Origin: Acidobacteriota bacterium
GTDB lineage: Bacteria; Acidobacteriota; Thermoanaerobaculia; Multivoradales; Multivoraceae
Direction: 5' to 3'
Length of the DNA: 64,000 nt
Assembly (NCBI GenBank): GCA_026707325.1
Contig: JAPOXA010000165.1
Location: 22,481 to 86,480 of the forward strand
The position numbers and the translations under genes are program-made. The notes beneath the pieces are model-generated. The model searched no databases and was not told the DNA's origin. It was given only the letters and a program-made list of their open reading frames with translations. Shown piece after piece: positions 17,725-59,452 of this stretch (the first letter of the stretch is position 1; each line of letters starts with the position of its first letter).

Positions 17725-18003
17725 CGCGGACCACGACCGCGGCCTCCTGGTCGACCGGCGCGGACCACGACCGCGGACCACGACCGCGGACCACGACCGC
17801 GGCCTCCTGGTCGACCGGCGCGGACCACGACCGCGGCCTCCTGGTCGACCGGCGCGGACCACGACCGCGGACCACGACCGCGGACCACGACCGCGGCCTC
17901 CTGGTCGACCGGCGCGGACCACGACCGCGGCCTCCTGGTCGACCGGCGCGGACCACGACCGCGGACCACGACCGCGGACCACGGGACCACGACCGCGGAC
18001 CAC
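17725..18003. repeat. non-coding tandem array of 13-bp (GCGGACCACGACC) and 21-bp (GCGGCCTCCTGGTCGACCGGC) units
   Basis: Order X Y X X X Y gives a 94-bp higher-order period, about 3 copies (17725, 17819, 17913). Confidence 0.9.
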
Positions 18004-18011
18004 GCACGTGA

Positions 18012-18281
18012 CCAATTGAGCTTTCCCTCTTTCCCTTCCTTGACCAATCGAGCTTTCCCCATCCCAGTCCCGGAGCCAATCCCTTCGCCAATCGAGCTTT
18101 CCCCATCCCAGTCCCGGAGCCAATCCCTTCGCCAATCGAGCTTTCCCCATCCCAGTCCCGGAGCCAATCCCTTCGCCAATCGAGCTTTCCCCATCCCAGT
18201 CCCGGAGCCAATCCCTTCGCCAATCGAGCTTTCCCCATCCCAGTCCCGGAGCCAATCCCTTCGCCAATCGAGCTTTCCCTC
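18012..18281. repeat. non-coding 44-bp tandem array, about 5.5 copies
   Basis: Unit ccaatcgagctttccccatcccagtcccggagccaatcccttcg starts at 18044, 18088, 18132, 18176, 18220, 18264. Confidence 0.9.
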
Positions 18282-24344: not shown

Positions 24345-24980
24345 CTACGCAGCCTCGGCCTCGGCGGCCTCGGCGGCCGCAGCGGCCGCGTTGGCCTTGC
24401 GGGTCACCCAGGCCTTCTTCGCGCGGGCGCTCGCCGCCGCCGCCTTCTCCTCGGGCGTCAGCTCCGGCTTCGGCGCCGGGGGCACCCAGTCGGGACCGCG
24501 CCGCGTGGCCCATGCCTTATGGGCGCGGGCGCTGGCCGCAGCCGCCTTCTCCTCGGGCGTCAGCTCCGGCTTCGGCTCCGGGGCCACCCAGTCGGGACCG
24601 CGCCGCGTGGCCCATGCCTTATGGGCGCGGGCGCTGGCCGCAGCCGCCTTCTCCTCGGGCGTCAGCTCCGGCTTCGGCTCCGGGGCCACCCAGTCGGGAC
24701 CGCGCCGCGTGGCCCATGCCTTATGGGCGCGGGCGCTGGCCGCAGCCGCGACGTCGGCCGCCTCGGACTCGACGTGCGCGGACAGCGCGTCGCGGGCGGC
24801 GTCGTAGAGCCGCTTCCGCTCGGTCGCGTCCTGAACGTCGGCCGTGTAGCCGCCGTCGGCGTCCGTGATCGAGCCCACGCTGTTGCCGTCGACCGTAACG
24901 TCGTAGCCGCCGGCGTTGGCCTCGAGCACGACGGCGAAGGCGACCTCGCCGATCGTCAGGTTGTAGTTCGTGTTCGACAT
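24345..24980 (-). CDS. tandem-repeat protein (34-aa KAWATRRGPDW units)
   Basis: 3.5 copies of ASARAHKAWATRRGPDWVAPEPKPELTPEEKAAA; same architecture as 15181..15909. Confidence 0.6.
   Translation of the reverse strand: MSNTNYNLTIGEVAFAVVLEANAGGYDVTVDGNSVGSITDADGGYTADVQDATERKRLYDAARDALSAHVESEAADVAAAASARAHKAWATRRGPDWVAPEPKPELTPEEKAAAASARAHKAWATRRGPDWVAPEPKPELTPEEKAAAASARAHKAWATRRGPDWVPPAPKPELTPEEKAAAASARAKKAWVTRKANAAAAAAEAAEAEAA
24400..24750. repeat. 102-bp tandem repeat, about 3.5 copies, in-frame
   Basis: Unit starts at 24403, 24505, 24607, 24709. Confidence 0.85.
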
Positions 24981-33243: not shown

Positions 33244-33292
33244 CTCAGTTGTACACCACATCGGAGACTGTCTACCTCGCGGTATAAGCCCC
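33244..33292 (-). mobile_element. solo copy of the TnpB-element left end
   Basis: GGGGCTTATACCGCGAGGTAGACAGTCTCCGATGTGGTGTACAACTGA (minus strand) matches the first 49 nt of the three full elements. Confidence 0.7.
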
Positions 33293-33706: not shown

Positions 33707-36700
33707 CTAGGCGTCGGCCTGTTGACGCTTCCAACGGAGGTACTGCTGCCGGCAATATTTGTCGACCCGGACGTCGGGATCGCGCCAGATGACCTCGAAC
33801 TCTCGGTGGCACTTCCGCCCCATGAGGTCCCAATACTTCGCTCGTGCGATCTTGTTCGCTTTCTCAATGTTCGTCGGTGAAATGCGGCAGGCGATCGCGC
33901 ACAGTTCCGGCCAGATGTCGAGACTCGGCGGCCACGGAAGGTAGTCGTCTTCGCCATCGACGCCTCGAACCTCTGTCAGTTCGCCTGGACGGGACACGAG
34001 CTTTCCCCTTGGGCGCACTCGAGTAGCGCCGCAGGCTGGACATGACTCCATGTCTTTCTCGAGTACGAAACCGCACCGGCACCGCATCTCCGCAGCCTTG
34101 CGCTTGTAGCTCACCGTGCTGACGCGCCTGGGGCGTGTACTCAGCTTTGGACAGCCCTCTGCGAAGAACCTGAAGATCTCGTCCATGAACCGGAGGTAGT
34201 TGCCCGAGTTATGAGTCAGGAGCCCTTCCACAGTGAAGCGATTTCTGGGTCCGGCTCCACGAATGTCCCATACCTCCCTTTCGGTTTCAACGACGGCAGG
34301 GACCACCGTTCGGCGATCTCTTCGTCCGTCAAGCCCTCGACCATCAACGCTCTGAGCGTGGCATCTCGATAGCGGACCTCCGGGTACTTGATCTTGAACG
34401 CATTCATACGCGGAGACCACTTGGTTCCGCGCCTGTTGTTCGTGTTGAGAATCCGAGTAGCCCAACGCAGGTTCCCAGGCTCGTAGTGACCGTCGTTCTC
34501 GACCCGGTCTAGATCGGGCAACGGAGGCTCGGGCACTCCTAGATGAGCGACGACCCATCGCGCGGCAACGGCCACCGACTTCCAGCGAAACTCGATGCCA
34601 CGACCGCCATAGTTGTCGTATCCAACCGCGTTGGGGTTTGTGCAGCGCTGCTTCGCCGCGGCAAGACGCGCGTACAGCCACGAGGGGTAAGCCTTCGGCC
34701 GTGCCTGATTGCACCATCGGCAACCCTGGCTGCGGCCTCGTCTTAGATTCTGATACGAGACGACGGAGCGAAAGCCACAGGTCACGCACTCGCAGATGAC
34801 GTACAGCTTCCTTTCGTCTCGATGGCCCAGACGAAGAGCCGTAGCGGAAACGACCTTGACTGAGCCTAAGCGCTTGCCCTCCAAATCCGGTCTCTGCGAT
34901 TCCAAGGCGTCGATCCGCGGCCTCCCGTAGCGTGGCCCAGCCTTCTGATGTGTAGACCTTGTGATCTTCAGTTCCGATGAGTCCTGCATACTCGATGACC
35001 TTCCGCCTGCCAACGCGGACAGCGCCACAATGATGAACCCACTCAACGCCGTCCCAAAGCAGATCGGTGCCTAGTATATCTCGAATACACTGCAACCCAC
35101 GATCTCTTGTTAGCACTCGCTGGTCAGCCGCAATGCAGTGGTCGATGAGCAAGCCGTACTTCTTGCCTGAAGCGGCGCGCATGACCCGGCCGAGACGCTG
35201 AATCTCCAGGTCGACTGCCTTCCTCAGTGTGTAGGCGTCGATCATGACTCGGGTCTGCGGCACGTCGAAGCCCTTGGCCAACGACGAACAAGAGATAAGA
35301 CCTAGGTACTTTCCCTCTCTGTACGCATCAATGATCGGCTGCTTCTCCTTCCACTTCTGCTTGTAGGTGATCGAGCGGAAGTCATGGCCACGACGCTGGA
35401 ACCGCTGTGCGAGGTCCTGGCAATCCGCCACTGATGGACAGAAGACGATCGTCTGCACTGGCTGGCCGTAGAACTGGTCGCACCGCGCCTCCCACTCACC
35501 GAGGATGTCGCCCGTGATTGCCTGGACACGCCGGCCGAGGTCTTCTCGAACGTACTCCCCATCGCTCTTGCGCTGAACACCAACCGTGTTGACCTGGATG
35601 TTGGGGGCAACCACTTTGATCGGACTCAGGTAGCTGCGCCTGACCAGTTCGTTCGTGTTCGAGGCATTCACCACGTCCTGGTAGTGCTTGCCGCACTTGA
35701 ACGGCGTTGCCGACAGACCGAGCAGCGTGATGTCCTTCTCCCTGATCTGGCGCAAGATAGAAGTCCACATCGTGTGACAGTTGCCAGCCACGCAGACTTT
35801 CCCGTTTCGGCGAACCACAATCGCCCCGGAAGGAACTTCGACGCAGTAAACGGGGCCACAGTACGGCACCCTCGACCTTCGGGCAGTCTGAGTTGAAACG
35901 CTGTCAACATTCCAGCCAATGAAGAGACGCCAAATGTCTCTGTGCTGCTCAGACTCATGGACCTGCCGAGTCTTTCGGCAACGGCAACCAGCGATAGCAG
36001 CCAGCGCCTGATAGTAGTCGGCGACCGACTCATCGGCCGTCGAGAAATAGCCCAACCCCTCTGAAACCTCGCTACCGTCCCAGTGCAGCATCTCCTTCAG
36101 CACTGCCAGCGCTGACGACGCGGACATCGAACCAGGAGGCATCAGGCTCGGAAGATGCAGCATGGCAGCGTCAACTCCATACACGAAGAACCGTCGCTTT
36201 GCTCGATTGCACTTTCCCTCTTTCCACGAGAAGCTACCGCGCTTCATGAGCGCTAGGAACCGGTCGATCTTCCGCTGGCGACTGAATGAGAAAGCCAGCG
36301 TCGCTCTTCCATCTGCCCATCTATAATGAAGGTTGCCGTCCGCCTGAAACGCAATCGCCAGCCTGTGGAATGTCCGAAGCTCCACGGGTGGCATCGACGA
36401 CTTTCCTGAAACAGGGATGCGCCGATAACCATTCAGCTTGACATCCTTGGCACGGTCTTTGTGGACTCTACCAACGGGAGTAGTCGTAACGACATCATGG
36501 TTCGGTGTCACCAGAAGATCGGCATGTCGATGCTGGATGTGAACAAGCTCTCCATCGAAGTTCTGCTTGATCTTCCTGGCCGGACTCGTGAAGTCGATGC
36601 TGCCATCTGAGTGCCACTGCGCGACTTTCTCGCTGCCAAGATCAGCGAAGGGCACAAAGCCAGATTCCGTCAAAATCTCCGTGCTCGCGTGAAAACACTC

Positions 36701-37117
36701 GTCGATGACCACAAGATCGGGAGGCTCTTCGCGTCCCGTGACCTTGTTGATGTAGTCGAAACCTCGACGGATCAGGGTCTGAGCCGAGCAGATCACCGTG
36801 CGGGACCAAAGGCCACGGGTCATTCCGTGCATGAGCACCCCGTGGCGGATCCCATAGCTGGAGAACCGTCGGCTGGTCTGGCGCACCAGTTCACGCTGGT
36901 CACAGATGAAGAGAGAGTGGCTCCCCTTCGTCTGTGACGACTTGATGATCGCCATCGACATTTCGGTCTTTCCCGATCCTGGCGGAGCGCAGAGGACCAG
37001 CCGCTTAGCGCCGGCCCGGTACTTTCGCCGAAGCTCGTTGACCGCTGTGATCTGGTAGTCGTAGAGGGTCAGACCAGATGCCGGCTGACCCGACTCATCA
37101 AGCGTGATCTGGCTCAA
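33707..37117 (-). CDS. SF2 (DECH-box) phage helicase interrupted by two inteins
   Basis: APPGSGKT (I), VVIDE|intein|CH (II), LSAT (III), QRLGRVMR (VI); C-terminal CRCG...CPACG ribbon. Confidence 0.9.
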   Translation of the reverse strand: MSQITLDESGQPASGLTLYDYQITAVNELRRKYRAGAKRLVLCAPPGSGKTEMSMAIIKSSQTKGSHSLFICDQRELVRQTSRRFSSYGIRHGVLMHGMTRGLWSRTVICSAQTLIRRGFDYINKVTGREEPPDLVVIDECFHASTEILTESGFVPFADLGSEKVAQWHSDGSIDFTSPARKIKQNFDGELVHIQHRHADLLVTPNHDVVTTTPVGRVHKDRAKDVKLNGYRRIPVSGKSSMPPVELRTFHRLAIAFQADGNLHYRWADGRATLAFSFSRQRKIDRFLALMKRGSFSWKEGKCNRAKRRFFVYGVDAAMLHLPSLMPPGSMSASSALAVLKEMLHWDGSEVSEGLGYFSTADESVADYYQALAAIAGCRCRKTRQVHESEQHRDIWRLFIGWNVDSVSTQTARRSRVPYCGPVYCVEVPSGAIVVRRNGKVCVAGNCHTMWTSILRQIREKDITLLGLSATPFKCGKHYQDVVNASNTNELVRRSYLSPIKVVAPNIQVNTVGVQRKSDGEYVREDLGRRVQAITGDILGEWEARCDQFYGQPVQTIVFCPSVADCQDLAQRFQRRGHDFRSITYKQKWKEKQPIIDAYREGKYLGLISCSSLAKGFDVPQTRVMIDAYTLRKAVDLEIQRLGRVMRAASGKKYGLLIDHCIAADQRVLTRDRGLQCIRDILGTDLLWDGVEWVHHCGAVRVGRRKVIEYAGLIGTEDHKVYTSEGWATLREAADRRLGIAETGFGGQALRLSQGRFRYGSSSGPSRRKEAVRHLRVRDLWLSLRRLVSESKTRPQPGLPMVQSGTAEGLPLVAVRASCRGEAALHKPQRGWIRQLWRSWHRVSLEVGGRCRAMGRRSSRSARASVARSRPGRERRSLRAWEPALGYSDSQHEQQARNQVVSAYECVQDQVPGGPLSRCHAQSVDGRGLDGRRDRRTVVPAVVETEREVWDIRGAGPRNRFTVEGLLTHNSGNYLRFMDEIFRFFAEGCPKLSTRPRRVSTVSYKRKAAEMRCRCGFVLEKDMESCPACGATRVRPRGKLVSRPGELTEVRGVDGEDDYLPWPPSLDIWPELCAIACRISPTNIEKANKIARAKYWDLMGRKCHREFEVIWRDPDVRVDKYCRQQYLRWKRQQADA
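34208..35137 (-). other. intein 2 (310 codons) in helicase
   Basis: Starts CIAADQRVLT after LLIDH, block B GTEDHKVYT, ends VWDIRG...FTVEGLLTHN followed by S. Confidence 0.75.
34216..34989 (-). CDS. HNH-family homing endonuclease encoded in an alternate frame inside intein 2
   Basis: GKRLGSVKVV...CECVTCG...CRWCN...YGGRGIEFRW...LDRVENDGHYEPGNLRWATRILNTNN; frame differs from the helicase frame. Confidence 0.6.
   Translation of the reverse strand: MQDSSELKITRSTHQKAGPRYGRPRIDALESQRPDLEGKRLGSVKVVSATALRLGHRDERKLYVICECVTCGFRSVVSYQNLRRGRSQGCRWCNQARPKAYPSWLYARLAAAKQRCTNPNAVGYDNYGGRGIEFRWKSVAVAARWVVAHLGVPEPPLPDLDRVENDGHYEPGNLRWATRILNTNNRRGTKWSPRMNAFKIKYPEVRYRDATLRALMVEGLTDEEIAERWSLPSLKPKGRYGTFVEPDPEIASLWKGS
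35780..36697 (-). other. intein 1 (306 codons) in helicase motif II
   Basis: Starts CFHASTEILT after VVIDE, ends KVCVAGN followed by CH; LAGLIDADG-like LAIAFQADGN and LKEMLHWDGS. Confidence 0.8.
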
Positions 37118-42144: not shown

Positions 42145-42462
42145 CTACTCGCCGATGGCGACCTGGGCGGCGAACACCGCCAGTTCGGCATCGCGCTTCG
42201 ACCTGAATCGATCTTCGAGCATGATGTAGGTGTCTGTCAGAGTGCGGTACTGAGCGCGCCAGGGAGCCACCACGGGCTTTACGTCACGCCCCGGGATGTA
42301 GAGGTTCCGTTCCTTCCAGACTCGACCTATAACGAAGCCTGTGTGATCCTCGACCGGCTCGTAGACCTTCGCAGACCTCATGCTCCAGATATCGGGCTTT
42401 GGCATGGTCCGCTGGCGATCGGCATTCACGACGCACTGCTTCTTGTTGACGTAAAAGCCCAT
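42145..42462 (-). CDS. hypothetical protein
   Basis: Start MGFYVNKK overlapping upstream stop. Confidence 0.45.
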   Translation of the reverse strand: MGFYVNKKQCVVNADRQRTMPKPDIWSMRSAKVYEPVEDHTGFVIGRVWKERNLYIPGRDVKPVVAPWRAQYRTLTDTYIMLEDRFRSKRDAELAVFAAQVAIGE

Positions 42463-42971
42463 CAGCCAGCCTCCGGCGGTCCAGGAGCGACCGGGATGTA
42501 GTTGACCTCGTGACGGAACGCAGCTGTGGCCCGCTGCCACTCCCGGCCAAGCGACTCCTCACACTCGATCGCTTGCCGCAACAGCTTGGCGAGACAATCC
42601 GCGAGATCAGCCGGGTCTTCCTCATCGACGTTGACGCGATTCAGCGTCGCCATCGTGGTCTTGATCGCCGAGTCAAGCTGACGCAACCGCAGCAGATAGC
42701 CGGCCATGCCTTCGATGCGGTCACGAAGGTCACCGCCAAAACGGCGACGGTACGGCTCAACCGGATCATGCTCTTCATCCTGGTATACCCGTCCTTCACA
42801 GGTGGCGACCAACCGATAGATCGTGCACTTCCGACCTTCCGGGAAGCACTCTTGCGCAAACTCGACCGCGTCATCGACGCGAGCAAACATGCCAGCCTTG
42901 GTGCCGAGAGAACCTGCCTCGATCCAGTAGACGGACGGATCGCTCTCGATCTTCGTTTCTGTGGGGCTCAT
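42462..42971 (-). CDS. hypothetical protein whose ATG lies in the TnpB-element end
   Basis: MSPTETKIESDPSVYW...; ATG overlaps the tnpB TGA (ATGA) at 42968-42971. Confidence 0.5.
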   Translation of the reverse strand: MSPTETKIESDPSVYWIEAGSLGTKAGMFARVDDAVEFAQECFPEGRKCTIYRLVATCEGRVYQDEEHDPVEPYRRRFGGDLRDRIEGMAGYLLRLRQLDSAIKTTMATLNRVNVDEEDPADLADCLAKLLRQAIECEESLGREWQRATAAFRHEVNYIPVAPGPPEAG

Positions 42972-44207
42972 ACCGAAAGATTGACGGCGGAAGCCGCCAG
43001 CCTCAACGGCATGTATTGACGGATCACCGAGGTGGCCAGCGCCAACGCCTCTCCCCGCCCAGTTGCCCCTGCTCCAGAGGCCAGTATGTTGCGAGCAGCG
43101 TTCAGGTCCGCGTGATCGCGGTACCCGCACTCGCAACGAAACACGGTTCGACGACGCTCACCGCGAGCGCCGCAACCAGCACAAGACACCGAAGTGCCGG
43201 ATGGGTTCACCGCAACCGTAGAGGCGGCCTTGTAGCCGATCTTGGCGAGCAGTCCACCCCAGCCTGGCTTGAGGTTCTCACGGTTCAGGCCATGCTTGCC
43301 GCGACCCTTGCGGGACATCGCCTTGACCTTCAGCGCCTCATGGCAGACGAGACCAGCGGTGTCCGCAAGGCAACGACTGACGTGATGCTGCCAGTTCTTT
43401 CGCACGTTCCGCAGCTTCCGCTCGGTCTTGGCCTTCCGGTAACGAGCCACGGCCCGACGACCGGAACCCTTCTTCCGACGAGACATCATCCGCTGATACC
43501 GCTTCTTCCGCGCTTCCAGACGATTCACGTCCGTGAACGGCATGATCTGGCCGGTAGAGCAGGCCACAGCGCGGCTCGCGTGGTTCAGGTCGATGCCGAT
43601 GGACAAGCCGTTGTCTTCCGGCTCCTCGTCCGGCACCGAGTAGCAGACCGTCGCGTAGTACCGCCCAAGCTCTCGTTTCACGACCACCTTCACCGGGTCG
43701 CCGTCAGGATACGGATTCGAGCCGACGATCTGGACCCATCCGAGCTTCGGTATCCACAGGCGGCCGGAGCGGATGCGGATGTCCTGCGGGATCGTGAACG
43801 TGTCGTTCCAACGCTTGAAACGAGGATGACCACCTTGACCCTTGAAGTAGCGAGACCACGCCTCCGACTGATACTTAAGCGAGTACCGGACCACACCGAA
43901 CGGCTGCTCAGACAACCACGGGTGCTCACGACGAAGACCAGGCATCCGCTTGCCGAGAGCGAAGAACGAGGTTGAAGGCTTCTCCACGCCGTACATCTCG
44001 TGCAGAAGCATGTCCTCTTCGTTCTCCGAAAGAACCTTGTTCCAGACGAAGCGGCACGCCTGCATCACACCATCGAGACGAGACGCCATGCCCCGGCTGC
44101 CTGGACGCAAGCGGTAAATCACCTGACGGTGCATTCCGTTCATTGTACTAGAGTTGACGTCAGTTGTACACCGCATCGGAGACGGTCTACCTTGCGGTAT
44201 AAGCCCC
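42963..44207 (-). mobile_element. TnpB-only IS element, copy 1 (1245 bp)
   Basis: Ends GGGGCTTATACCG(C/A)AAGGT(A/T)GAC inverted; internal promoter TGTACA-17-TACAAT at 44142-44170. Confidence 0.8.
42968..44143 (-). CDS. tnpB: TnpB RNA-guided endonuclease, RuvC residues intact
   Basis: SIGIDLN, VCHEALKVKAM, CAGCG...CECG, HADLNAARNI; start MNGMHRQ. Confidence 0.88.
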   Translation of the reverse strand: MNGMHRQVIYRLRPGSRGMASRLDGVMQACRFVWNKVLSENEEDMLLHEMYGVEKPSTSFFALGKRMPGLRREHPWLSEQPFGVVRYSLKYQSEAWSRYFKGQGGHPRFKRWNDTFTIPQDIRIRSGRLWIPKLGWVQIVGSNPYPDGDPVKVVVKRELGRYYATVCYSVPDEEPEDNGLSIGIDLNHASRAVACSTGQIMPFTDVNRLEARKKRYQRMMSRRKKGSGRRAVARYRKAKTERKLRNVRKNWQHHVSRCLADTAGLVCHEALKVKAMSRKGRGKHGLNRENLKPGWGGLLAKIGYKAASTVAVNPSGTSVSCAGCGARGERRRTVFRCECGYRDHADLNAARNILASGAGATGRGEALALATSVIRQYMPLRLAASAVNLSV

Positions 44208-45126: not shown

Positions 45127-45671
45127 GCCGTGGCCTCCTTGTTCACCAGCGACCTGAACATCCGGCGCTTCAACTCAGCCTCAGCGTCTTCCATCAACGG
45201 ATACTCCTTATCGAAGGCCCAGACCCAGGACACGATCTCGTCCAGCTTCTCGAGGCGGATCTTGCTGCCGATGCTGATGTACCAGCGCGGCTGCTCGTCT
45301 TCCCAGAGGCGCATCACTTCCAGGTCCTCCTGGAGGTTCAGCGAGTCGATCTCACGCTGCAAACCGAACGGGTCCCAGCGGGCGAACTCGGCGCTGCGAT
45401 TGTCGACGAGCCGGTAAGCCTTGATCTGCTCGGGCGTCAGTTCCGACGCGACATGCACCGGAAGCTTCTTGATGCCGAGCTTCTTGGCGGCAACCAATCG
45501 AGCGTGACCAGCAACGATGACGCCCTCCTCGTCCACGACAATGCATCGGCGTATACCGAACCTGTCGATCGACTCGGCAACTGCCGAGATCAAGGTATCC
45601 TGGAGAAACCTCGGGTTGTTATGGTATGGGATCACCTTGTCGATGTCCCACATTTCGATCTTGAAGCTCAT
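45123..45671 (-). CDS. ParB N-terminal (ParB/Srx) domain protein
   Basis: IDKVIPYHNNPRFL...SIDRFGIRRCIVVDEEGVIVAGHARLVAAKKLG. Confidence 0.8.
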   Translation of the reverse strand: MSFKIEMWDIDKVIPYHNNPRFLQDTLISAVAESIDRFGIRRCIVVDEEGVIVAGHARLVAAKKLGIKKLPVHVASELTPEQIKAYRLVDNRSAEFARWDPFGLQREIDSLNLQEDLEVMRLWEDEQPRWYISIGSKIRLEKLDEIVSWVWAFDKEYPLMEDAEAELKRRMFRSLVNKEATA

Positions 45672-45847
45672 ACTGTTAGCTCCGCCGCTGGTTGGCAGCC
45701 GGCCAACGGCACAGATTGACGGATAACGGAGGTGGCGAGCGCCTTGCCGGCTTCGCCGGGCCGCTGCCCCGGCTGCCTGGACGCAAGCGGTAAATCACCT
45801 GACGGTACATTCCGTTCATTGTACTAGAGTTGGCCTCAGTTGTCCAC
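45669..45847 (-). mobile_element. internally deleted TnpB-element remnant
   Basis: Keeps promoter TGGACA-17-TACAAT (45818-45846), first about 20 tnpB codons and about 110 nt of the right end; outermost left end missing. Confidence 0.7.
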
Positions 45848-48887: not shown

Positions 48888-50712
48888 TCCGCCCCTCCAA
48901 TAGTTCGAGCATCGCCGCGATTCCAGGGATGATCGACAGGTAGTTCGACCGGGCCTCGCGGTTCTCCATGTAGTAGACAAGGTCTTCGGGATCCGCTTCC
49001 TTGAGCCGCAGATGGGTGAAGCTCTGACCCCAGCCGTCGTTACTTGACTCTGGCAGCATCACCTTGGCGTCGAACTCGCGCTCGCGGTAGCTCCACTTCC
49101 GATACCACCCGTCTGTGTCGTGGTAGCCCCAAGAGCCACCTTCGACTGGAACCTTGATGTAGTGGCGATCCTTCTGCCGCCGCGCGATGCTGACGCCGAT
49201 CCGCTCCTTGGGCGTGAAGTACCGCTCAGGGTTATGCCAGTGGCGACTCCAGCATCCAGGCGCGTTCTCGGCGGTGATCAGCTTGTCCCAGTAGCAGGCG
49301 ACCTCGTCGCCGCTCTCGATCTTGTCGTTGTGGTACTTGATCCACTGCCAGAAGTTGGGCCGACCATCGGCGAGCACTTTCTCCTTGTCGTGGACGAACC
49401 GGAAGAAGCGTTCCTGCGACTCGATGGAGTACAGATTGGGCCGGCCTCCCTCGAACTGACCTAGAAGGCCCAGCCGATCGCTCAGACCTGACAGCAGGAT
49501 CAGGATGCGTCGGTAGTACAGCGCGAGTTCGTCGGCCTCGTGCTTCTTTCCGGGATACTCCAGGCTCTCAGGTGTGATCACGTATGCCTTGCGCTTGAAG
49601 AACGAGTCGCCCTTGACGTGGAACGGCTCCTCGAACTCACCTTCGTTCGGGAACAACTGGTGCATGATCTTTATGCTAGAGAACACGGCGTGAAGGTTCT
49701 CGCCGTCTCGGATCAGCAGGAATGCGCGCTTGTACTCCTTGTTCAGGTTCGCTTCCAGCCACGGGTCTTTCGTGCCGTAGTCCTTGAGATTGCGTCGGAT
49801 CTGCATGGCCACAACGGCTCGCTCAGCCGGAATGACGCGCTCGACCAGCTTCGGGTCCTCATTGAGTTGCTTCCCGAATGCCTGCATGTCCCTGAAATCC
49901 GCTCCGCCCCGATGAAGGTGGATCAGCGATTCCTCGTCCATGTAGAGACGGCGCTGGAACAGGCAGACAGGCTCCGACGGCTTCGCGCCGGTGCCTTCCT
50001 TGAAGGTGCGCACCACGACGCCGTTGCCCGTATAGAGGCCGATGGTTTGGAGCTTGGAGCTGATCTTCTTGAGCTGGCCTTGCACGGCGTCGCTCATGAT
50101 CTCTGCCACCATCGACTGTTCTTCGAGGAACTTCCGCACCGGCTCCATTGAGGCTTCGACCCGTTCGAGTTGAGCGGTGGCATCCTCCGCGTAGGCGGTC
50201 AGCTTCACCATCGAGTCTTGAGCCTTTTCCACTGACTCCAGATTGGTCGGTGCAGCCGGATTGCTCGGCAGAAGGGCCAGTTGATCGTTGACTTCGCTTT
50301 GGGCAGCCGCAAGCAATCTCTGGCGCTTGACCGCACCTTCAGGATCGTGCTCGTATTCGTCGATGAAATCGTCAACGAGATAGCGACGGTGCTGGTCCAT
50401 GTAGCGATCGCGACCGCCCCAGTTGTCGTACTTCCTCCACAGATCGGGATGCTGCACAACGGTAACGCTGTGCGGCTCCTTGTCGACGGTATGGACCTTC
50501 GACAGGATCACGAGTTCGCCGGCCGCAGCTTCGCGGCCGTGGCGAGCTTTCCAGTACGACCCGAGCGGGAGTTCGACATACGAATCGACCCGCTCCACCG
50601 TCTGGAGCTTGGCAATCTCAGTGGTCACCGAGACACCGACGATTGAGTCTAGGCGACTCTCCGGTCTTGTTCCGCGGACGATCGACTGGAGAACGATGGC
50701 GTGAACAACCAT
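48877..50712 (-). CDS. large hypothetical protein (about 610 aa)
   Basis: Long ORF with normal composition; start uncertain (ATG 50712 or downstream GTG). Confidence 0.55.
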   Translation of the reverse strand: MVVHAIVLQSIVRGTRPESRLDSIVGVSVTTEIAKLQTVERVDSYVELPLGSYWKARHGREAAAGELVILSKVHTVDKEPHSVTVVQHPDLWRKYDNWGGRDRYMDQHRRYLVDDFIDEYEHDPEGAVKRQRLLAAAQSEVNDQLALLPSNPAAPTNLESVEKAQDSMVKLTAYAEDATAQLERVEASMEPVRKFLEEQSMVAEIMSDAVQGQLKKISSKLQTIGLYTGNGVVVRTFKEGTGAKPSEPVCLFQRRLYMDEESLIHLHRGGADFRDMQAFGKQLNEDPKLVERVIPAERAVVAMQIRRNLKDYGTKDPWLEANLNKEYKRAFLLIRDGENLHAVFSSIKIMHQLFPNEGEFEEPFHVKGDSFFKRKAYVITPESLEYPGKKHEADELALYYRRILILLSGLSDRLGLLGQFEGGRPNLYSIESQERFFRFVHDKEKVLADGRPNFWQWIKYHNDKIESGDEVACYWDKLITAENAPGCWSRHWHNPERYFTPKERIGVSIARRQKDRHYIKVPVEGGSWGYHDTDGWYRKWSYREREFDAKVMLPESSNDGWGQSFTHLRLKEADPEDLVYYMENREARSNYLSIIPGIAAMLELLEGRNAA

Positions 50713-52642: not shown

Positions 52643-53887
52643 GGGGCTTATACCGAAAGGTTGACAGCAGCAGCTGCCAGCCTCAACGGCACGTATTGAC
52701 GGATCACCGAGGTGGCCAGCGCCAACGCCTCTCCCCGCCCAGTTGCCCCTGCTCCAGAGGCCAGTATGTTGCGAGCAGCGTTCAGGTCCGCGTGATCGCG
52801 GTACCCGCACTCGCAACGAAACACGGTTCGACGACGCTCACCGCGAGCGCCGCAACTAGAACAAGACACCGAAGTGCCGGACGGGTTTACCGCAGCCTTC
52901 GAGGCAGCCTTGTAGCCGATCTTGTCGAGAAGACCCGACCATCCCGGCTTGAGGTTCTCGCGGTTCAGACCATGCTTGCCGCGACCCTTGCGGGACATCG
53001 CCTTGACCTTCAGAGCCTCGTGACACACGAGACCAGCGGTGTCCGCGAGGCAACGGCTGACGTGGTGCTGCCAGTTCTTCCTCGTGTTCCTCAGCTTCCG
53101 CTCGGTCTTGGCCTTCCGGTGACGAGCCACGGCGCGGCGACCGGAACCCTTCTTCCGTCTCGACATCATCCGCTGATACCGCTTTTTCCGCGCTTCCAGG
53201 CGATCCACTTCTGGGAACGGCATGATCTCGCCAGTGGAACAGGCCACGGCGCGGGCAGCATGATTCAGGTCGATGCCGATGGACAAGCCGTTGTCTTCCG
53301 GCGCCTCATCCGGCACCGAGTAACAGACTGTCGCGTAGTACCGGCCGAGCTCCCGCTTCACGACCACCTTCACGGGCTCGCCGTCAGGATACGGATTCGA
53401 GCCGACGAGTCGAACCCAACCGAGCTTCGGTATCCATAGACGACTGGAGCGGATACGGATGCCTTGGGGAATCGTGAACGTGTCGTTCCAACGCTTGAAA
53501 CGAGGACGACCACCCTGACCCTTGAAAAAGCGAGACCACGCCTCCGACTGATACTTCAGTGTGTAGCGAACCACGGCACATGGCTGCTCTACCAACCACT
53601 CGTGATTGCGACGAAGAGAGGCTACACGCTTGCCCATCGTGAAAAACGAGGTGGATGGCTTCTCCACGCCGTACATCTCGTGCAACAACATGTCCTCTTC
53701 GTTCTCCGAAAGAACCTTGTTCCAGACGAAGCGGCACGCCTGCATCACACCATCGAGACGAGACGCCATGCCCCGGCTGCCTGGACGCAAGCGGTAAATA
53801 ACCTGACGGTGCATTCCGTTCATTGTACCAGAGTTGACGTCAGTTGTACACCGCATCGGAGACGGTCTACCTTGCGATATAAGCCCC
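52643..53887 (-). mobile_element. TnpB-only IS element, copy 2 (1245 bp)
   Basis: Same termini and length as copy 1; 19 nt after the stop of 53907..54179. Confidence 0.8.
52648..53823 (-). CDS. tnpB: TnpB RNA-guided endonuclease
   Basis: By eye roughly 90 percent identical to copy 1; D/E/D and Zn-finger motifs intact. Confidence 0.88.
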   Translation of the reverse strand: MNGMHRQVIYRLRPGSRGMASRLDGVMQACRFVWNKVLSENEEDMLLHEMYGVEKPSTSFFTMGKRVASLRRNHEWLVEQPCAVVRYTLKYQSEAWSRFFKGQGGRPRFKRWNDTFTIPQGIRIRSSRLWIPKLGWVRLVGSNPYPDGEPVKVVVKRELGRYYATVCYSVPDEAPEDNGLSIGIDLNHAARAVACSTGEIMPFPEVDRLEARKKRYQRMMSRRKKGSGRRAVARHRKAKTERKLRNTRKNWQHHVSRCLADTAGLVCHEALKVKAMSRKGRGKHGLNRENLKPGWSGLLDKIGYKAASKAAVNPSGTSVSCSSCGARGERRRTVFRCECGYRDHADLNAARNILASGAGATGRGEALALATSVIRQYVPLRLAAAAVNLSV

Positions 53888-53906: not shown

Positions 53907-54179
53907 CTACGGCTTCTCCGGCGTCCGACCGTGAACCCGCAAGGTCACCGATGTCCCGTCGCTGAATCGGAGCCATGCCTCTCGCGAGCCCAGGAGGAGG
54001 CCGAGGAGCTCGCCCCGGCCTCCCGTCAGTTGATCGAGCGTCACCAGCCCTCCTTCGACGCCGTGCTCATCCGTCAGGCGCACCGCGTCCAGCGGGAGAG
54101 AGATCGCCACCTGCGCGACGGTTTCCGCCAGCGTCGGCCCCGTGAACGCGGACCGAGGTTCCATGGGCACCGGATTCAC
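53907..54179 (-). CDS. hypothetical protein
   Basis: 90-aa ORF. Confidence 0.4.
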   Translation of the reverse strand: MNPVPMEPRSAFTGPTLAETVAQVAISLPLDAVRLTDEHGVEGGLVTLDQLTGGRGELLGLLLGSREAWLRFSDGTSVTLRVHGRTPEKP

Positions 54180-54180
54180 C

Positions 54181-56412
54181 CTAGTCGCCCCCGCTGAACT
54201 TCCAGTCGCTGTAGTTCACGCCGTCGGGGCCGCGCGCGCCCACCTGGACGCCGATCACCGTCGATCCGGTCAGCTCGCCCTCGATCGGAAAGACCACGCG
54301 GCGGCGCGAGCGGTCGCCGGCCGGCTCCGGGCGGTAGCCGACGTGCTGCGTCTTGACCTCGCGCGGGAACTGACCCCGCTGGAGTCGATTCTCGTAGCTG
54401 ATGTTCGCGCGTCGCGGCCGGCAATCGATTGTTGACCCCGGCTCGATGATCCAGGTCGGGCAGTGGATGTTCGGCTCCTCGGCGAACATCATCACGCGGA
54501 TCACGAAGGAGAGCTCGTCGTCGGAGAGGTCAGTCCAGGTGATGTCGAGGTCGTAGTAGCCGGGCTCGCCCCAGGCCCAATACGCCGTGATCCTCGGCGC
54601 TCGCGGGATGTCCCAGGTGAGGTCGCTGTACGCCGCGAGGTACATCGACGTGCGGTTCAGCGCTCCGGCCGCGTCGTAGAGGTACACGCTGTGCTTGGCC
54701 TTGTTCTTCGCCTTCAAGTCCGGGCTGGCGTTCGGCCAGTCCGGATGGTGCATGTCGTTCCGCGAACTGCCCAGGTGCCACATGGTCCCCGGATGCAGCA
54801 TCACGCCCTTCTTCATCGTCGGCTTCTTCCCGCGCAGGCCGTAGGGCGCCAGCCAGCCCTCGCCGGGGTTGCGCTTGTGAACGAGCCAGATGTCCGGGTT
54901 GGAGAAGAACGGCAATCGGCGGTAGTCGGAGTTGACCGGGTAACCCATGATCGTCAGCGCGCCCGTTTTCTGGGCGCGCCGGTCGGGATACGGACCCCGG
55001 AGCCGACCGCGGTAGCTCAACGCGCCCGTGCACGCCCGGTTCTCGGAGCGCTCTTTCGCGCTGTCGCACCACATGCCATGTTCCGCCTTGACCCACGGAT
55101 TGATGAAGACCCCGTGCCCGTTCCGATGCGTCGGCCAGCCGGAGTAGGGCATCGGATGCCAGCTCTCGTCGGGCCGGGCCGGGACGCGCACGCTGTCGTC
55201 ATAGGGACCGTAGTTCGGCAGCTGCCGGGCGTGATTGAGGCCGAGGTTGTGACCGATCTCATGGGCGAACGTGAACGCCGCTTCGTAGTGCGAGATGCCC
55301 TGGATCGACGAGCCGAACGCGCTGCGCAGGTTCCTGATCGCGCAGCCCAGATCCGTGAAGCCGTAGGTCTGGTCCATCACCGTCCACCAGCGGTTCTCCT
55401 GATTCAGGTCGGTTTCGCGGATTAGGCTCGCCTGGCCGCAGAGGCCGCGAGAGTCATTGGCGCCGTTCCAGGAGACCACGTGAACGAGATCGGCCTGATA
55501 TTGGTGGCGCAGGGCCTGGATCCGCATCGGGTAGCGGCTGATCGTCCAGTCCATGTTGCGCCACTGGGTCCGGCGGGCGCCGGTCTCCCTGATCTCCTCG
55601 GTGGTGAGGCCGGCGATGCCGTCCAGCCCGTCGATCGGCGACGGCTCGATGCCGACCAGCCGGAGCGATGCGCCGGTCTGGGAGTTGCGCAGGATTCGGT
55701 TCATGTTGGCGAACCAATATTCGAGCACCGAGTGGATGCCGTCTCGCTCGTCGCCCCACCGCTGCGCGTTCGGCGTCGTGATGACGAGCACGTCGATCTC
55801 GCGGTGGCCGTCTCGCGGCTCGAATGTCGAGCTCGACACCGCGACGGACGGACCGTTGCCCGCTCGGGGCAAGCCTCGGGCGAGTGGGTTCATCTCCGGC
55901 GGAATGACGGCGCGCTCCGCCTCCGCCACGTGATCCACGCCGCACCAGTGCTCGGACCGCTCGAACGTCGGTACCTCGCCGATGGTCCCGCGGCCGTCCG
56001 GGCCGACGTCGAGCGCGTAGTGGACTCCACCGAGCCAGAGGTCACCGATGACGCCCGATTCCGTGATCGAAAACAGCGTCGGCTCGCCCTGGGCGCCGAG
56101 TGGGCCGCCGGACCACGTCCCCGGGGCGCGGTGCATGGCCAGGTGTTGCTCGTGGCGCCCGTCGGGACGCGGCAGCAGGACCGAGTCCGGACCGGACCTG
56201 AGCTGGGCCATGTCCACCTCGACAGGCACGCCCTGAACGCGAACGGACGGCCCGAAGCCGTCCGATGTGGAATACGAAGCGACCATGCCGGCGTCGTCCG
56301 GTTCCCATTGCGCCTCGAACAGCAGTTGACCGCGCGCCGACGTCGACACCAGCAAGCCGGCGGCCAGCGCGAGGCACGCGAGAAACAGTCTACGCGCGGT
56401 GCGGCGCGACAT
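54181..56412 (-). CDS. secreted zinc metalloprotease (HExxH, reprolysin/M12B-like)
   Basis: Signal peptide MSRRTARRLFLACLALAAGLLVSTSARG; FAHEIGHNLGLNHA. Confidence 0.8.
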   Translation of the reverse strand: MSRRTARRLFLACLALAAGLLVSTSARGQLLFEAQWEPDDAGMVASYSTSDGFGPSVRVQGVPVEVDMAQLRSGPDSVLLPRPDGRHEQHLAMHRAPGTWSGGPLGAQGEPTLFSITESGVIGDLWLGGVHYALDVGPDGRGTIGEVPTFERSEHWCGVDHVAEAERAVIPPEMNPLARGLPRAGNGPSVAVSSSTFEPRDGHREIDVLVITTPNAQRWGDERDGIHSVLEYWFANMNRILRNSQTGASLRLVGIEPSPIDGLDGIAGLTTEEIRETGARRTQWRNMDWTISRYPMRIQALRHQYQADLVHVVSWNGANDSRGLCGQASLIRETDLNQENRWWTVMDQTYGFTDLGCAIRNLRSAFGSSIQGISHYEAAFTFAHEIGHNLGLNHARQLPNYGPYDDSVRVPARPDESWHPMPYSGWPTHRNGHGVFINPWVKAEHGMWCDSAKERSENRACTGALSYRGRLRGPYPDRRAQKTGALTIMGYPVNSDYRRLPFFSNPDIWLVHKRNPGEGWLAPYGLRGKKPTMKKGVMLHPGTMWHLGSSRNDMHHPDWPNASPDLKAKNKAKHSVYLYDAAGALNRTSMYLAAYSDLTWDIPRAPRITAYWAWGEPGYYDLDITWTDLSDDELSFVIRVMMFAEEPNIHCPTWIIEPGSTIDCRPRRANISYENRLQRGQFPREVKTQHVGYRPEPAGDRSRRRVVFPIEGELTGSTVIGVQVGARGPDGVNYSDWKFSGGD

Positions 56413-58207: not shown

Positions 58208-59452
58208 GGGGCTTATACCGAAAGGTTGACAGCGGCAGCTGCCAGCCTCAACGGCACGTATTGACGGATCACAGAGGTGGCCAGCGCCAACGCCTCTCCC
58301 CGCCCAGTTGCCCCTGCTCCAGAGGCCAGTATGTTACGAGCAGCGTTCAGGTCCGCGTGATCGCGGTACCCGCACTCGCAGCGAAACACGGTTCGACGAC
58401 GCTCACCACGAGCGCCGCAACTAGAACAAGACACCGAAGTGCCGGATGGGTTCACCGCAACCGTAGAACCGGCCTTGTAGCCGATCTTGTCGAGAAGACC
58501 CGACCACCCCGGCTTGAGGTTCTCGCGGTTCAGACCATGCTTGCCCCGACCCTTGCGGGACATCGCCTTGACCTTCAGAGCCTCGTGGCACACGAGACCA
58601 GCAGTATCAGCGAGACATCGGCTCACGTGGTGTTGCCAGTTCTTTCGCACGTTCCGCAGCTTCCGCTCCGTCTTGGCCTTCCGGTAACGAGCCACGGCGC
58701 GGCGACCGGAACCCTTCTTCCGTCTCGACATCATCCGCTGATACCGCTTTTTCCGCGCTTCCAGGCGATCCACTTCTGGGAACGGCATGATCTCGCCAGT
58801 GGAACAGGCCACGGCGCGGTCGGCATGGTTCAGGTCGATGCCGATGGACAAGCCGTTGTCTTCCGGCGCCTCATCTGGCACCGAGTAGCAGACCGTCGCG
58901 TAGTACCGCCCAAGCTCCCGCTTCACGACCACCTTCACCGGCTCGCCGTCAGAATACGGGTTCGAGCCGAGGAGTCGTACCCAGCCAAGCTTCGGTATCC
59001 AGAGGCGGCCAGCTCGGATGCGGATGTCCTGGGGAATCGTGAACGTGTCGTTCCAACGCTTGAAACGGGGCCGACCACGATCACCCTTGAAGAAGCCCCG
59101 CCATGCCTCCGACTGATACTTCAGCGCATACCGAACCACTGCGCACGGCTGCTCAGACAACCACGGGTGTTCACGACGAAGACCAGGCATCCGCTTGCCG
59201 AGAGCGAAGAACGAGGTTGAAGGCTTCTCCACGCCGTACATCTCGTGCAGAAGCATGTCCTCTTCGTTCTCCGAAAGAACCTTGTTCCAGACGAAGCGGC
59301 ACGCCTGCATCACACCATCGAGACGAGACGCCATGCCCCGGCTGCCTGGACGCAAGCGGTAAATCACCTGACGGTACATTCCGTTCATTGTACTAGAGTT
59401 GACGTCAGTTGTCCACCGCATTGGAGCCTGTCTACCTTGCGGTATAAGCCCC
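58208..59452 (-). mobile_element. TnpB-only IS element, copy 3 (1245 bp)
   Basis: Same termini and length; 7 nt after the dam stop. Confidence 0.8.
58213..59388 (-). CDS. tnpB: TnpB RNA-guided endonuclease
   Basis: Intact motifs; start MNGMYRQ. Confidence 0.88.
   Translation of the reverse strand: MNGMYRQVIYRLRPGSRGMASRLDGVMQACRFVWNKVLSENEEDMLLHEMYGVEKPSTSFFALGKRMPGLRREHPWLSEQPCAVVRYALKYQSEAWRGFFKGDRGRPRFKRWNDTFTIPQDIRIRAGRLWIPKLGWVRLLGSNPYSDGEPVKVVVKRELGRYYATVCYSVPDEAPEDNGLSIGIDLNHADRAVACSTGEIMPFPEVDRLEARKKRYQRMMSRRKKGSGRRAVARYRKAKTERKLRNVRKNWQHHVSRCLADTAGLVCHEALKVKAMSRKGRGKHGLNRENLKPGWSGLLDKIGYKAGSTVAVNPSGTSVSCSSCGARGERRRTVFRCECGYRDHADLNAARNILASGAGATGRGEALALATSVIRQYVPLRLAAAAVNLSV

What the first reader, a model, noticed from the sequence alone, without database searches (positions are those of the whole stretch)
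42963..44207. Three diverged, equal-length (1245 bp) TnpB-only elements with 23-nt terminal inverted repeats, each inserted immediately upstream of a gene start
Copies lie at 42963-44207, 52643-53887 and 58208-59452, all co-oriented with phage transcription. Their proteins look roughly 90 percent identical by eye, have the same length, and keep intact RuvC D/E/D and Zn-finger motifs. That argues for selection rather than decay. The ends read GGGGCTTATACCG(C/A)AAGGT(A/T)GAC on both sides in inverted orientation, whereas IS200/IS605-type tnpB elements are usually described with subterminal hairpins rather than inverted repeats. Each right end abuts a start codon: ATG at 52642, TTG at 58204, and in copy 1 a TAA-to-TGA change creates the ATG of 42462..42971 inside the element end. 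Each left end carries a promoter of the phage class B type (TGTACA or TGGACA, 17 nt, TACAAT). Any omega-RNA guide would therefore match the first codons of the adjacent phage gene. The true boundary is uncertain by about 4 nt (GGGG/CCCC), and I see no shared TAM.
Basis: partly seen in the sequence, partly recalled or inferred. Interest (0 to 1): 0.65.

Follow-up and report, generated by a model that had tools for sequence, protein, structure and literature searches.

The report
TnpB transposon copies in a phage
Three intact copies, plus two remnants, of a small mobile element encoding the RNA-guided nuclease TnpB sit between genes of an uncultured ~100 kb phage; their inverted-repeat ends place them in a large family moved by an IS1595-type transposase, not in the classical IS605 type.

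Summary
Three 1245-bp, co-oriented copies share sharp ends, 23-nt terminal inverted repeats (TIRs), an intact TnpB gene (dN/dS about 0.15) and an internal phage-type promoter.

The TIRs are a family trait. TnpB relatives at 40-50% identity, hugely amplified in sponge-symbiont genomes, carry homologous TIRs (GGGnnTTATA...TTGAC). In 46 independent insertions they also have 8-bp target-site duplications (TSDs).

In one Rhodothermales genome the same TIRs bound an IS1595-family DDE transposase gene. One TSD flanks the transposase+TnpB unit at three different sites.

The last ~170 nt of the gene holds a covariation-supported RNA scaffold, probably the omega-RNA. It is followed by a hairpin whose 3' arm is the right TIR.

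The phage copies are therefore non-autonomous TnpB elements of a DDE/IS1595-linked family, not IS200/IS605 or IS607 elements. They differ from the bacterial copies in four ways:
- They have no TSD.
- They use a phage-type promoter.
- The TnpB stop codon lies in the right TIR, 0-8 nt from the next gene's start.
- A solo left end and an internally deleted copy also persist.

No empty sites were found. Guide use, TAM and any homing are inferred, not shown.

The parts
42963..44207 (-). Element copy 1 (1245 bp). Left TIR 44185-44207, promoter 44142-44170, TnpB CDS 42968-44134 (388 aa; ORF open from 44176), omega-RNA core 43010-43087, right-end hairpin about 42969-43013, right TIR 42963-42985.
   Evidence: The stop is TGA, and the ATG of the next gene (42462-42971) overlaps it as ATGA.
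52643..53887 (-). Element copy 2 (1245 bp). Left TIR 53865-53887, promoter 53822-53850, TnpB CDS 52648-53814, omega-RNA core 52690-52767, right-end hairpin 52650-52692, right TIR 52643-52665.
   Evidence: The stop TAA lies in the TIR, and the ATG of the next gene is at 52642.
58208..59452 (-). Element copy 3 (1245 bp). Left TIR 59430-59452, promoter 59387-59415, TnpB CDS 58213-59379, omega-RNA core 58255-58332, right-end hairpin 58215-58257, right TIR 58208-58230.
   Evidence: The start of the next gene is ambiguous: TTG 58204 or GTG 58180.
45672..45847 (-). Internally deleted, decayed copy. It keeps the promoter (45818-45846) and the first ~17 TnpB codons, 98% identical to copy 3. These are fused at a GGGGCA repeat to a ~90-nt remnant of the 3' end (~80% identical). 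It ends ...GTATGAGC, and that ATG is the start of the ParB-like gene (45671).
   Evidence: (family D4). The omega-RNA model does not detect it.
33245..33292 (-). Solo left end: the TIR plus 25 nt up to the -35 box (GGGGCTTATACCGCGAGGTAGACAGTCTCCGATGTGGTGTACAACTGA). It lies 3 nt after the stop of the upstream gene, then switches into a different phage promoter.

Best explanation
These are three long-resident copies, plus two remnants, of a non-autonomous TnpB/omega-RNA transposon. It belongs to a large TIR-bounded family.

In bacteria, members of this family insert with 8-bp target duplications. They are moved in trans, or as a composite, by an IS1595-family DDE transposase that recognises the same ends (shown in relatives).

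In the phage, each copy is probably transcribed from its own phage-type promoter as a leaderless TnpB mRNA (inferred from promoter geometry).

The last ~170 nt of the gene fold into a conserved scaffold. The core helices are shown by covariation. The terminal hairpin, whose 3' arm is the right TIR, rests on single-sequence folds that recur across families.

By analogy with characterised TnpB systems, the 16-20 nt just beyond the right end would serve as the guide. That is the first codons of the next phage gene (inferred).

The most likely role is selfish retention or homing. TnpB would cut an allele lacking the element, for example in a co-infecting relative, where the guide match sits next to a permissive flank instead of the element end. 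Repair from the element-bearing genome would then copy the element in (inferred).

The TnpB stop codon lies in the right TIR, 0-8 nt from the next start codon and behind a strong hairpin. Translation of the downstream gene, and part of its transcription, has therefore probably become coupled to the element (inferred).
For: Copies, boundaries, TIR, intact TnpB.

Purifying selection: dN/dS 0.15-0.16.

Family-level TIR: the right-end consensus GTCAA-N8-9-TATAAGYCCC, with the stop codon in the TIR, recurs in many bacterial lineages.

Target duplications: 46 independent insertions have perfect or near-perfect 8-bp TSDs.

DDE partner: L097:1659-2615 matches DDE_Tnp_IS1595 (4.6e-37) plus Zn_ribbon_IS1595. 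It lies between the same TIRs. A single TSD flanks the transposase+TnpB composite at three different sites (TAACTTTA, AATACTAT, ATCTGTAA). The IS1595 family is described with 8-bp TSDs and this domain pair (PMC8101967).

Precedent: DDE-associated TnpBs with inverted ends, and solo TnpBs mobilised in trans, are described in PMC10691335.

Omega-RNA core: 18 pairs, 95.3% paired against 78.6% in shuffles, covariation score 0.464 against 0.183 (0 of 500 shuffles), and collapse when partners are slid. The model built from this alignment also finds the TnpBs of L003 and L004, which were not in the training set (58 and 64 bits).

Right-end hairpin: the same architecture is predicted in all 11 families folded. 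The phage version has dG -24.4 and z -3.65.

Synonymous sites are constrained over the omega-RNA region: pS 0.08-0.12 against 0.16-0.43 in the middle of the gene.

Phage-type promoter.

No transposase in the window.
Against: The phage copies have no target-site duplication. Flank similarity is no better than in shuffles, and the flanks are not AT-rich like the bacterial targets.

The DDE partnership is shown in only one bacterial genome. Its TIR shares only the GGGnnTTATA core with the phage TIR.

No IS1595 transposase with the phage-type TIR was found.

No element-free allele of any of the three sites could be found. Recent mobility, boundaries at single-base resolution, TAM and homing are therefore untested.

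The RNA's ends, the guide, and nuclease activity are inferred only.

The low synonymous divergence at the two ends could reflect gene conversion rather than constraint. A mosaic pattern among the copies supports that possibility.
Confidence: 0.72

Rival explanations
1. These are IS200/IS605-family TnpB-only (IS1341-type) or IS607-derived elements. They would be mobilised as single-stranded DNA by a Y1 TnpA, or by a serine recombinase, and the inverted repeats would be incidental.
For: The TnpB matches Pfam OrfB_IS605. The phage copies have no TSD. A subterminal hairpin exists at the right end.
Against: The TIRs are conserved across the whole clade. In 46 bacterial insertions they come with 8-bp TSDs. 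Neither the Y1 nor the serine mechanism produces TSDs (PMC13565253 section 5.1; PMC6188088 abstract).

No conserved tetra- or pentanucleotide abuts the left end.

The only transposase found within matching ends is a DDE of the IS1595 family. No recurrent Y1 or serine recombinase gene lies next to the 80 relatives. That clustering only covered ORFs of at least 180 aa, so a short Y1 TnpA could have been missed.
Confidence: 0.04
2. These are domesticated cassettes. The elements no longer transpose. The phage keeps three diverged TnpB genes as RNA-guided nucleases against competing phages or element-free relatives, like free-standing homing endonuclease genes, or as promoter and translational-coupling modules for the downstream genes. 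The TIRs would persist because they are part of the omega-RNA.
For: - The copies have no TSD.
- They show strong purifying selection over dS of about 0.3.
- They use a promoter of the phage's own class.
- Their stop codons abut or overlap the next start codons.
- The same three copies are fixed in contigs from several samples.
- The right TIR is the 3' arm of an RNA hairpin.
- In another phage-like contig (L003), a 59%-identical TnpB keeps the RNA core but has lost the inner TIR.
Against: Both TIRs are kept at 21-23 of 23 positions in all three copies, including the left one, which has no evident RNA role. That argues for continued transposase recognition or recent mobility.

The remnants (a solo left end and an internally deleted copy) look like ordinary transposon decay.

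No target outside the element's own flanks was found in the window.

This reading overlaps with the best explanation. The origin is the same, and only present-day mobility differs.
Confidence: 0.2
3. This is an ordinary segmental duplication of a phage gene with its promoter, made by recombination. It would not be a mobile element.
For: The copies are co-oriented and equal in length, and the pattern of differences suggests gene conversion.
Against: Similarity ends at exactly the same base on both sides in all three copies, at inverted repeats. Homologous ends bound independently inserted copies with TSDs in many bacteria.
Confidence: 0.02

Closest known systems
DDE-transposase-associated TnpB elements with inverted terminal repeats (branches DDE-1 to DDE-6 of Altae-Tran et al. 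2023, PMC10691335). A 2026 review names the partner families as ISL2, IS630 and IS1031 (PMC13565253).
   Same: The ends are symmetrical (inverted). The TnpB 3' end lies within 250 bp of a transposon end. Solo TnpB copies are bounded by the same ends as transposase-bearing units, so mobilisation is in trans.
   Different: The partner found here is an IS1595-family transposase (DDE_Tnp_IS1595 plus a zinc ribbon). That family is not named in the texts I could read; the paper's supplement was not available. The phage copies also lack TSDs and carry a phage promoter.
IS1595 family of insertion sequences (related to eukaryotic Merlin).
   Same: In the bacterial relatives: 8-bp TSDs, TIRs starting GG, and a transposase with an N-terminal zinc ribbon and a DDE_Tnp_IS1595 domain (PMC8101967). 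From my memory of ISfinder, the ISNwi1 subgroup has ends 'ggnnatTAT' and members with passenger genes. This was not checked here.
   Different: Canonical members carry only the transposase. Here the cargo is TnpB with an omega-RNA. Most copies lack the transposase altogether. The target shows an orientation-specific G just 5' of the TSD.
IS200/IS605 TnpB elements (ISDra2; IS1341-type TnpB-only) and their omega-RNA.
   Same: The protein family and RuvC/zinc-finger core are the same. A structured RNA overlaps the 3' end of tnpB and runs to the right end. There is a subterminal hairpin at the right end.
   Different: The IS200/IS605 elements have no TIRs and no TSDs. They insert 3' of a fixed 4-5-nt motif that doubles as the TAM, and they use a Y1 transposase.
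Free-standing homing endonuclease genes of T-even phages (Seg, Mob).
   Same: They are nuclease genes wedged between conserved phage genes. They are transcribed with the phage programme and are expected to act on related co-infecting genomes.
   Different: Here recognition would be RNA-guided. The gene sits inside a transposon with TIRs. No homing or marker exclusion has been shown.

Membership tests
TnpB / OMEGA RNA-guided nuclease | OrfB_IS605 (RuvC) and zinc-ribbon/TNB domains with an intact D-E-D triad | tested here: met
   Pfam hits appear in all three copies. D196, E280, D357 and the four Cys are conserved in the 36-sequence alignment. The protein aligns to ISDra2 TnpB structures 8H1J/8EXA at E about 4e-17.
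TnpB / OMEGA RNA-guided nuclease | Structured omega-RNA scaffold overlapping the 3' end of tnpB and reaching the right end | tested here: met
   Covariation supports 4 helices. The covariance model finds held-out homologues. The terminal hairpin is conserved across families. Actual transcript ends were not measured.
TnpB / OMEGA RNA-guided nuclease | Guide- and TAM-dependent DNA cleavage | not testable with these tools
   This needs biochemistry. The only pointer is a G at -1 of the TSD in 43 of 46 bacterial insertions.
IS200/IS605 (including IS1341-type TnpB-only) | No terminal inverted repeats; the ends are asymmetric hairpins | tested here: not met
   A 23-nt TIR is present in every copy and is homologous to the TIRs across the clade.
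IS200/IS605 (including IS1341-type TnpB-only) | No TSD; insertion 3' of a fixed tetra- or pentanucleotide | tested here: not met
   Relatives make 8-bp TSDs. The phage left flanks share no adjacent motif.
IS607 | Serine-recombinase TnpA; no TIR and no TSD | tested here: not met
   TIRs and TSDs are present in the family. No recurrent neighbouring gene appeared in a clustering of ORFs of at least 180 aa, and only the recurring clusters were scanned against Pfam.
IS1595-family-type (DDE) transposon, non-autonomous derivative | Terminal inverted repeats shared with an element that encodes a DDE_Tnp_IS1595 transposase | tested here: met
   This was met in Rhodothermales relatives. The transposase at L097:1659-2615 lies between GGGAGTTATAT... 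ends, and the TnpB element's left end is 36/40 identical to one of them. For the phage TIR itself only the GGGnnTTATA core is shared, and no cognate transposase was found.
IS1595-family-type (DDE) transposon, non-autonomous derivative | 8-bp target-site duplication | tested here: inconclusive
   This was met in 46 bacterial insertions. It was not met in any of the three phage copies. The four phage left flanks do keep G at -9, as in the bacterial target logo.
IS1595-family-type (DDE) transposon, non-autonomous derivative | Actual mobilisation by that transposase | tested here: inconclusive
   The evidence is indirect. The transposase+TnpB composite is flanked by one TSD at three different sites. 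No experiment was possible, and nothing was shown for the phage copies.

The most novel reading that the evidence does not exclude
TnpB/omega-RNA has formed a stable and very successful partnership with IS1595-family DDE transposons, reaching more than 40 copies in one sponge-symbiont genome. In this reading, the orientation-specific G just 5' of the 8-bp duplication is the TAM, so the nuclease polices element-free sites even for a cut-and-paste element. In the phage, the copies have become fixed promoter+nuclease cassettes that act as RNA-guided homing or exclusion endonucleases against co-infecting relatives. Their right flanks would have been remodelled, for example by transposase-mediated adjacent deletion up to the next gene start. 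That would explain both the missing TSDs and the start-codon abutment.
Probability: 0.25. Interest if true: 0.7.

Novelty: new variant of a known kind. Interest (0 to 1): 0.5.

Why it matters
These copies are not classical IS605-type elements.
- It points to an IS1595-linked TnpB family that is large, active and easy to delimit, because it has clear TIRs and TSDs. It comes with a ready-made omega-RNA model and a one-base TAM candidate that a depletion assay could test.
- It gives a natural case for asking what an RNA-guided nuclease does for a cut-and-paste DDE transposon. A recent review treats that pairing as rare and hard to rationalise.
- The phage shows how such elements can settle into a dense viral genome. 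They adopt the phage's promoter, place their stop codon at the next gene's start, and stay under selection.
- If homing were shown, this would be an RNA-guided counterpart of phage free-standing homing endonucleases.

Tried and rejected
Empty sites and close relatives of the phage:
- Other contigs carrying these exact TnpBs have the same three copies at the same places.
- IMG/VR scans with TnpB, the peptidase, the DUF5131 protein, the methyltransferase and the 177-aa neighbour found no syntenic relative.
- JGI metagenome scans with the TIR pattern and with the 625-aa anchor protein found nothing.
- The two diverged relatives found through protein searches (L085, L194) share only a single gene each with the window.

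Other searches:
- Megablast of the element against GenBank phages gave no match.
- Rfam at gathering threshold gave no hit in the window.
- An IMG/VR scan with a looser TIR pattern returned 10 single matches, none with TnpB or an IS1595 transposase. These are probably chance.
- A search for other targets of the three putative guides in the window found only the elements' own flanks.

Rejected ideas:
- The internally deleted copy at 45.7 kb is not a stand-alone omega-RNA gene. The covariance model does not detect it.
- IS607-style GG core crossover does not fit. The ends are inverted (GGGG/CCCC), with no direct dinucleotide repeat.
- A cryptic or displaced TSD, or swapped flanks between copies, was not found. 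No flank pair scores above shuffles.
- Pairing of the terminal AAGYCCC with the upstream GGGAYU motif co-varies by family, but one variant gives a U-U mismatch. I did not claim it.
- The Altae-Tran 2023 supplement was not held as text, so I could not check whether one of their DDE branches is IS1595.
Full report
**1. What is in the window**

Repeat finding and a three-way alignment confirm three co-oriented copies of a 1245-bp unit on the minus strand. They lie at 42963-44207, 52643-53887 and 58208-59452.
- Similarity begins and ends at the same base in all three copies: GGGGCTTATACC... on the upstream side and ...GGTATAAGCCCC on the downstream side.
- The two ends are 23-nt inverted repeats, with 21-23 of 23 positions matching.
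- A degenerate TIR pattern gives 7 matches in 64 kb against 0.00 expected by chance.

Each copy carries one ORF with Pfam OrfB_IS605 and Cas12f1-like_TNB domains.
- It aligns to ISDra2 TnpB structures.
- The RuvC residues D196/E280/D357 and the four zinc-finger cysteines fall in invariant or near-invariant columns of a 36-sequence alignment.
- Copies are 89.5-91.4% identical in DNA.
- dN/dS is 0.15-0.16 at dS 0.27-0.34, so all three have been kept by selection for a long time.

**2. Promoter and start codon**

Its -35 motif GTGKACAAC occurs 11 times in the window, always on the transcribed strand, against 0.63 expected. Six of these are unrelated to full copies. The element therefore uses a promoter of the phage's own type.

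Homologue N-termini (consensus ..HRxITYRL..) indicate that translation starts at the ATG about 7 nt after the -10 box (MHRQVIYRL, 388 aa). The database also holds 388-aa cluster members from an NCBI record. The mRNA is thus probably leaderless. This is an inference.

**3. Context**

The window is part of an uncultured ~100-107 kb phage-like genome seen in several metagenomes.
- All of these contigs have the same three copies at the same places.
- All genes around the copies run on the minus strand.
- Recognisable functions include ParB-like proteins, a DNA methyltransferase, a DUF5131 protein, an M12 peptidase, a helicase and tail proteins.
- There is no close relative among GenBank phages.
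- TnpB genes as such are common in isolated phages: 93 records, all below 33% identity to this one.

**4. The inverted repeats are a family trait linked to a DDE transposase**

The closest TnpB homologues (40-59% identity) come from metagenomes. A scan of species-representative genomes found them highly amplified in sponge-associated MAGs. One Rhodothermales chromosome accounts for about 40 of the best 80 loci.

Aligning the Rhodothermales copies shows sharp ends with TIRs: GGGAGTTATATGGCTGAGTG... and ...CACTCACGTATATAATTCCC. They are flanked by clear 8-bp AT-rich direct repeats.

Across many lineages the ends read GGG(G/A)NTTATAT-N8-TTGAC(A/G). This is plainly homologous to the phage's GGGGCTTATACCG(C/A)AAGGT(A/T)GAC. 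I collected 46 independent insertions with perfect or one-mismatch 8-bp TSDs.

In three loci of the Rhodothermales genome, a 318-aa protein lies between the same TIRs. It matches DDE_Tnp_IS1595 (4.6e-37) and Zn_ribbon_IS1595.
- At each of the three sites, one TSD (TAACTTTA, AATACTAT or ATCTGTAA) flanks the whole transposase+TnpB unit.
- The outer left end of the transposase element and the right end of the TnpB element were therefore used together in transposition.
- The left end of the long-form TnpB element is 36/40 identical to one end of the transposase element.

The IS1595 family is described as having 8-bp TSDs and exactly this domain pair (PMC8101967). TnpBs associated with DDE transposases, with inverted ends and solo copies mobilised in trans, are already described (PMC10691335). 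A 2026 review names ISL2, IS630 and IS1031 as the partner families (PMC13565253). I found no text linking TnpB mechanistically with IS1595. The relevant supplement was not available.

IS200/IS605 and IS607 membership fails on TIRs and TSDs.

**5. The RNA**

No Rfam family matches. An alignment of the 3' ends of 24-26 representatives gives a conserved structure inside the last ~130 nt of the ORF.
- It has four helices and 18 pairs, of which 11 show compensatory changes.
- 95.3% of cells are paired against 78.6% in shuffles.
- The covariation score is 0.464 against 0.183 (0 of 500 shuffles reach it).
- Sliding the partners drops pairing to 34-52%.
- A covariance model built from it scores the three phage copies at 83 bits. 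It also finds the TnpBs of two phage-like contigs that were not used to build it (58 and 64 bits).

Downstream of this core, every family folded shows the same long hairpin.
- Its 3' arm is the right TIR, and only the last 6-9 nt (AUAAGYCCC) are left single-stranded.
- The phage version has dG -24.4 kcal/mol and z -3.65.
- The element therefore has both a TIR and a subterminal right-end hairpin.

The TnpB stop codon (TAA) lies in the TATAA of the right TIR in the phage and in many bacterial families. Synonymous divergence among the phage copies drops to 0.08-0.12 over this region, against 0.16-0.43 in the middle of the gene.

By analogy with characterised TnpBs, the guide would be the 16-20 nt beyond the right end. 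This is not shown here.

**6. How the phage copies differ from the bacterial ones**

They have no TSD. No pairing of left and right flanks, within or between copies, scores above shuffles, and the flanks are not AT-rich.

The bacterial target logo has a strongly orientation-specific G immediately 5' of the TSD (43 of 46). There is no mirrored C after the downstream TSD copy. All four phage left-end flanks, including the solo end, have G at the equivalent position -9:
- AGG|ACTCGTCC
- ATG|CCCCAGAC
- GTG|AGTAACAG
- ATG|AATGAGCA

The chance of this is about 1% at this base composition. It suggests, weakly, that the left junctions are original insertion junctions and the right flanks were later remodelled, by adjacent deletion or by recombination. 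That would also fit the right ends lying at gene starts. This is a hypothesis only.

No IS1595 transposase is encoded in the window.

**7. Relation to the neighbouring genes**

- Copy 2: the next gene's ATG follows the last base of the element.
- Copy 1: the TnpB stop is TGA instead of TAA, and the next gene's ATG overlaps it as ATGA inside the TIR.
- Decayed copy at 45.7 kb: the same GTATGAGC arrangement provides the ATG of a ParB-like gene.
- Copy 3: the start is either TTG 3 nt after the element or GTG 27 nt after it.

A -24 kcal/mol hairpin lies inside the last 15 TnpB codons, and there is no obvious Shine-Dalgarno sequence. Translation of the downstream genes is therefore probably coupled to TnpB translation. 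This is an inference.

In a tightly packed phage genome, only intergenic insertions survive. Proximity to stop and start codons is thus partly expected.

**8. Remnants**

A solo left end at 33245-33292 keeps the TIR and the -35 box, then switches into another phage promoter.

An internally deleted copy at 45672-45847 keeps the promoter and 17 codons at 98% identity to copy 3. These are fused to a more diverged 3' remnant. It is not an intact omega-RNA.

The unequal conservation in that remnant, and the mosaic pattern of synonymous differences among the copies, point to gene conversion between copies. An unrecognised function of the first ~130 nt is the alternative.

**9. What could not be settled**

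I found no element-free allele despite eight collection scans and three protein searches (section 'tried and rejected'). The few diverged relatives share single genes only, which shows strong mosaicism. The following therefore remain untested:
- current mobility of the phage copies;
- the transposase that would move them;
- the RNA's real ends;
- the TAM;
- any homing or exclusion activity.

**10. Verdict**

This is a variant of the already described DDE-associated TnpBs, and here it has adapted to a phage genome.

Interest is moderate. The phage case is a tidy example rather than a new principle. The family-level findings are concrete and testable:
- the IS1595 link;
- very high copy numbers;
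- the one-base target asymmetry that could be a TAM;
- the TIR embedded in the omega-RNA hairpin.

Noticed in passing
window 33245-33292 (-): A solo left end of the element: the TIR plus 25 nt including the -35 box, 46/48 identical to the full copies. It lies 3 nt after the stop of the upstream gene and is joined directly to a different promoter (AGTTGACACCCGCGATCC...).
   Followed up: partly
window 45672-45847 (-): An internally deleted element copy. The promoter and first 17 TnpB codons are 98% identical to copy 3, while the left TIR and the 3' remnant are decayed. It drives and abuts the ParB-like gene that starts at 45671. This unequal conservation suggests gene conversion or a function of the first ~130 nt.
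   Followed up: partly
window, 11 sites on the minus strand (3533, 19674, 29288, 33248, 44163, 45839, 48439, 51043, 53843, 59408, 60669): GTGKACAAC is a phage-wide -35-like motif: 11 matches against 0.63 expected, all on the transcribed strand. It is followed 17 nt later by CATACT/TACAAT/TAGGAT-type -10 boxes.
   Followed up: partly
window 29280, 32261, 33228, 33631 (-): A second recurrent promoter-like motif, AGTTGACAnnnGCGAnCC followed by TAGGAT (7 matches against 0.7 expected).
   Followed up: no
window 15250-15594, 24407-24749, 17725-17983, 18044-18279: Several long tandem repeats. Two arrays have a 102-nt unit (3.4 copies each, 96% matches) and lie 9 kb apart. There is also a 94-nt x2.8 array and a perfect 44-nt x5.4 array. 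They lie in the most GC-rich part of the window.
   Followed up: no
window 33707-37117 (-): The 1136-aa helicase ORF matches a helicase PHROG in two separated parts. A segment between them matches ribonucleotide-reductase and PhoH PHROGs. This may be an intein or another insertion.
   Followed up: no
window 54162-56397 and 48902-50616: Single-gene mosaicism. The M12 peptidase gene is 94-96% identical in DNA to a contig binned as Caldilineaceae (L085). The 625-aa gene is 82% identical to another phage-like contig (L194). In both cases the neighbouring genes are unrelated.
   Followed up: partly
loci L086-L165 (bacterial relatives): The target sites of 46 insertions have G immediately 5' of the 8-bp TSD in 43 cases, with no mirrored C on the other side. 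This is an orientation-specific signal that could be a TnpB TAM. One Rhodothermales chromosome (OY760427.1) accounts for about 40 of the 80 loci returned.
   Followed up: partly
L003:9099-9215 (phage-like contig, TnpB 59% identical): This TnpB keeps the omega-RNA core (58 bits) but lacks the inner part of the right TIR and its hairpin, and has no left TIR. It looks like an immobilised relative in another phage.
   Followed up: partly
window copies, codons 1-55 of TnpB: Synonymous sites are almost frozen in the first 55 codons (pS 0-0.14, and 0/36 between copies 1 and 3) although no RNA structure is known there. Which pair of copies is closest changes along the gene.
   Followed up: partly
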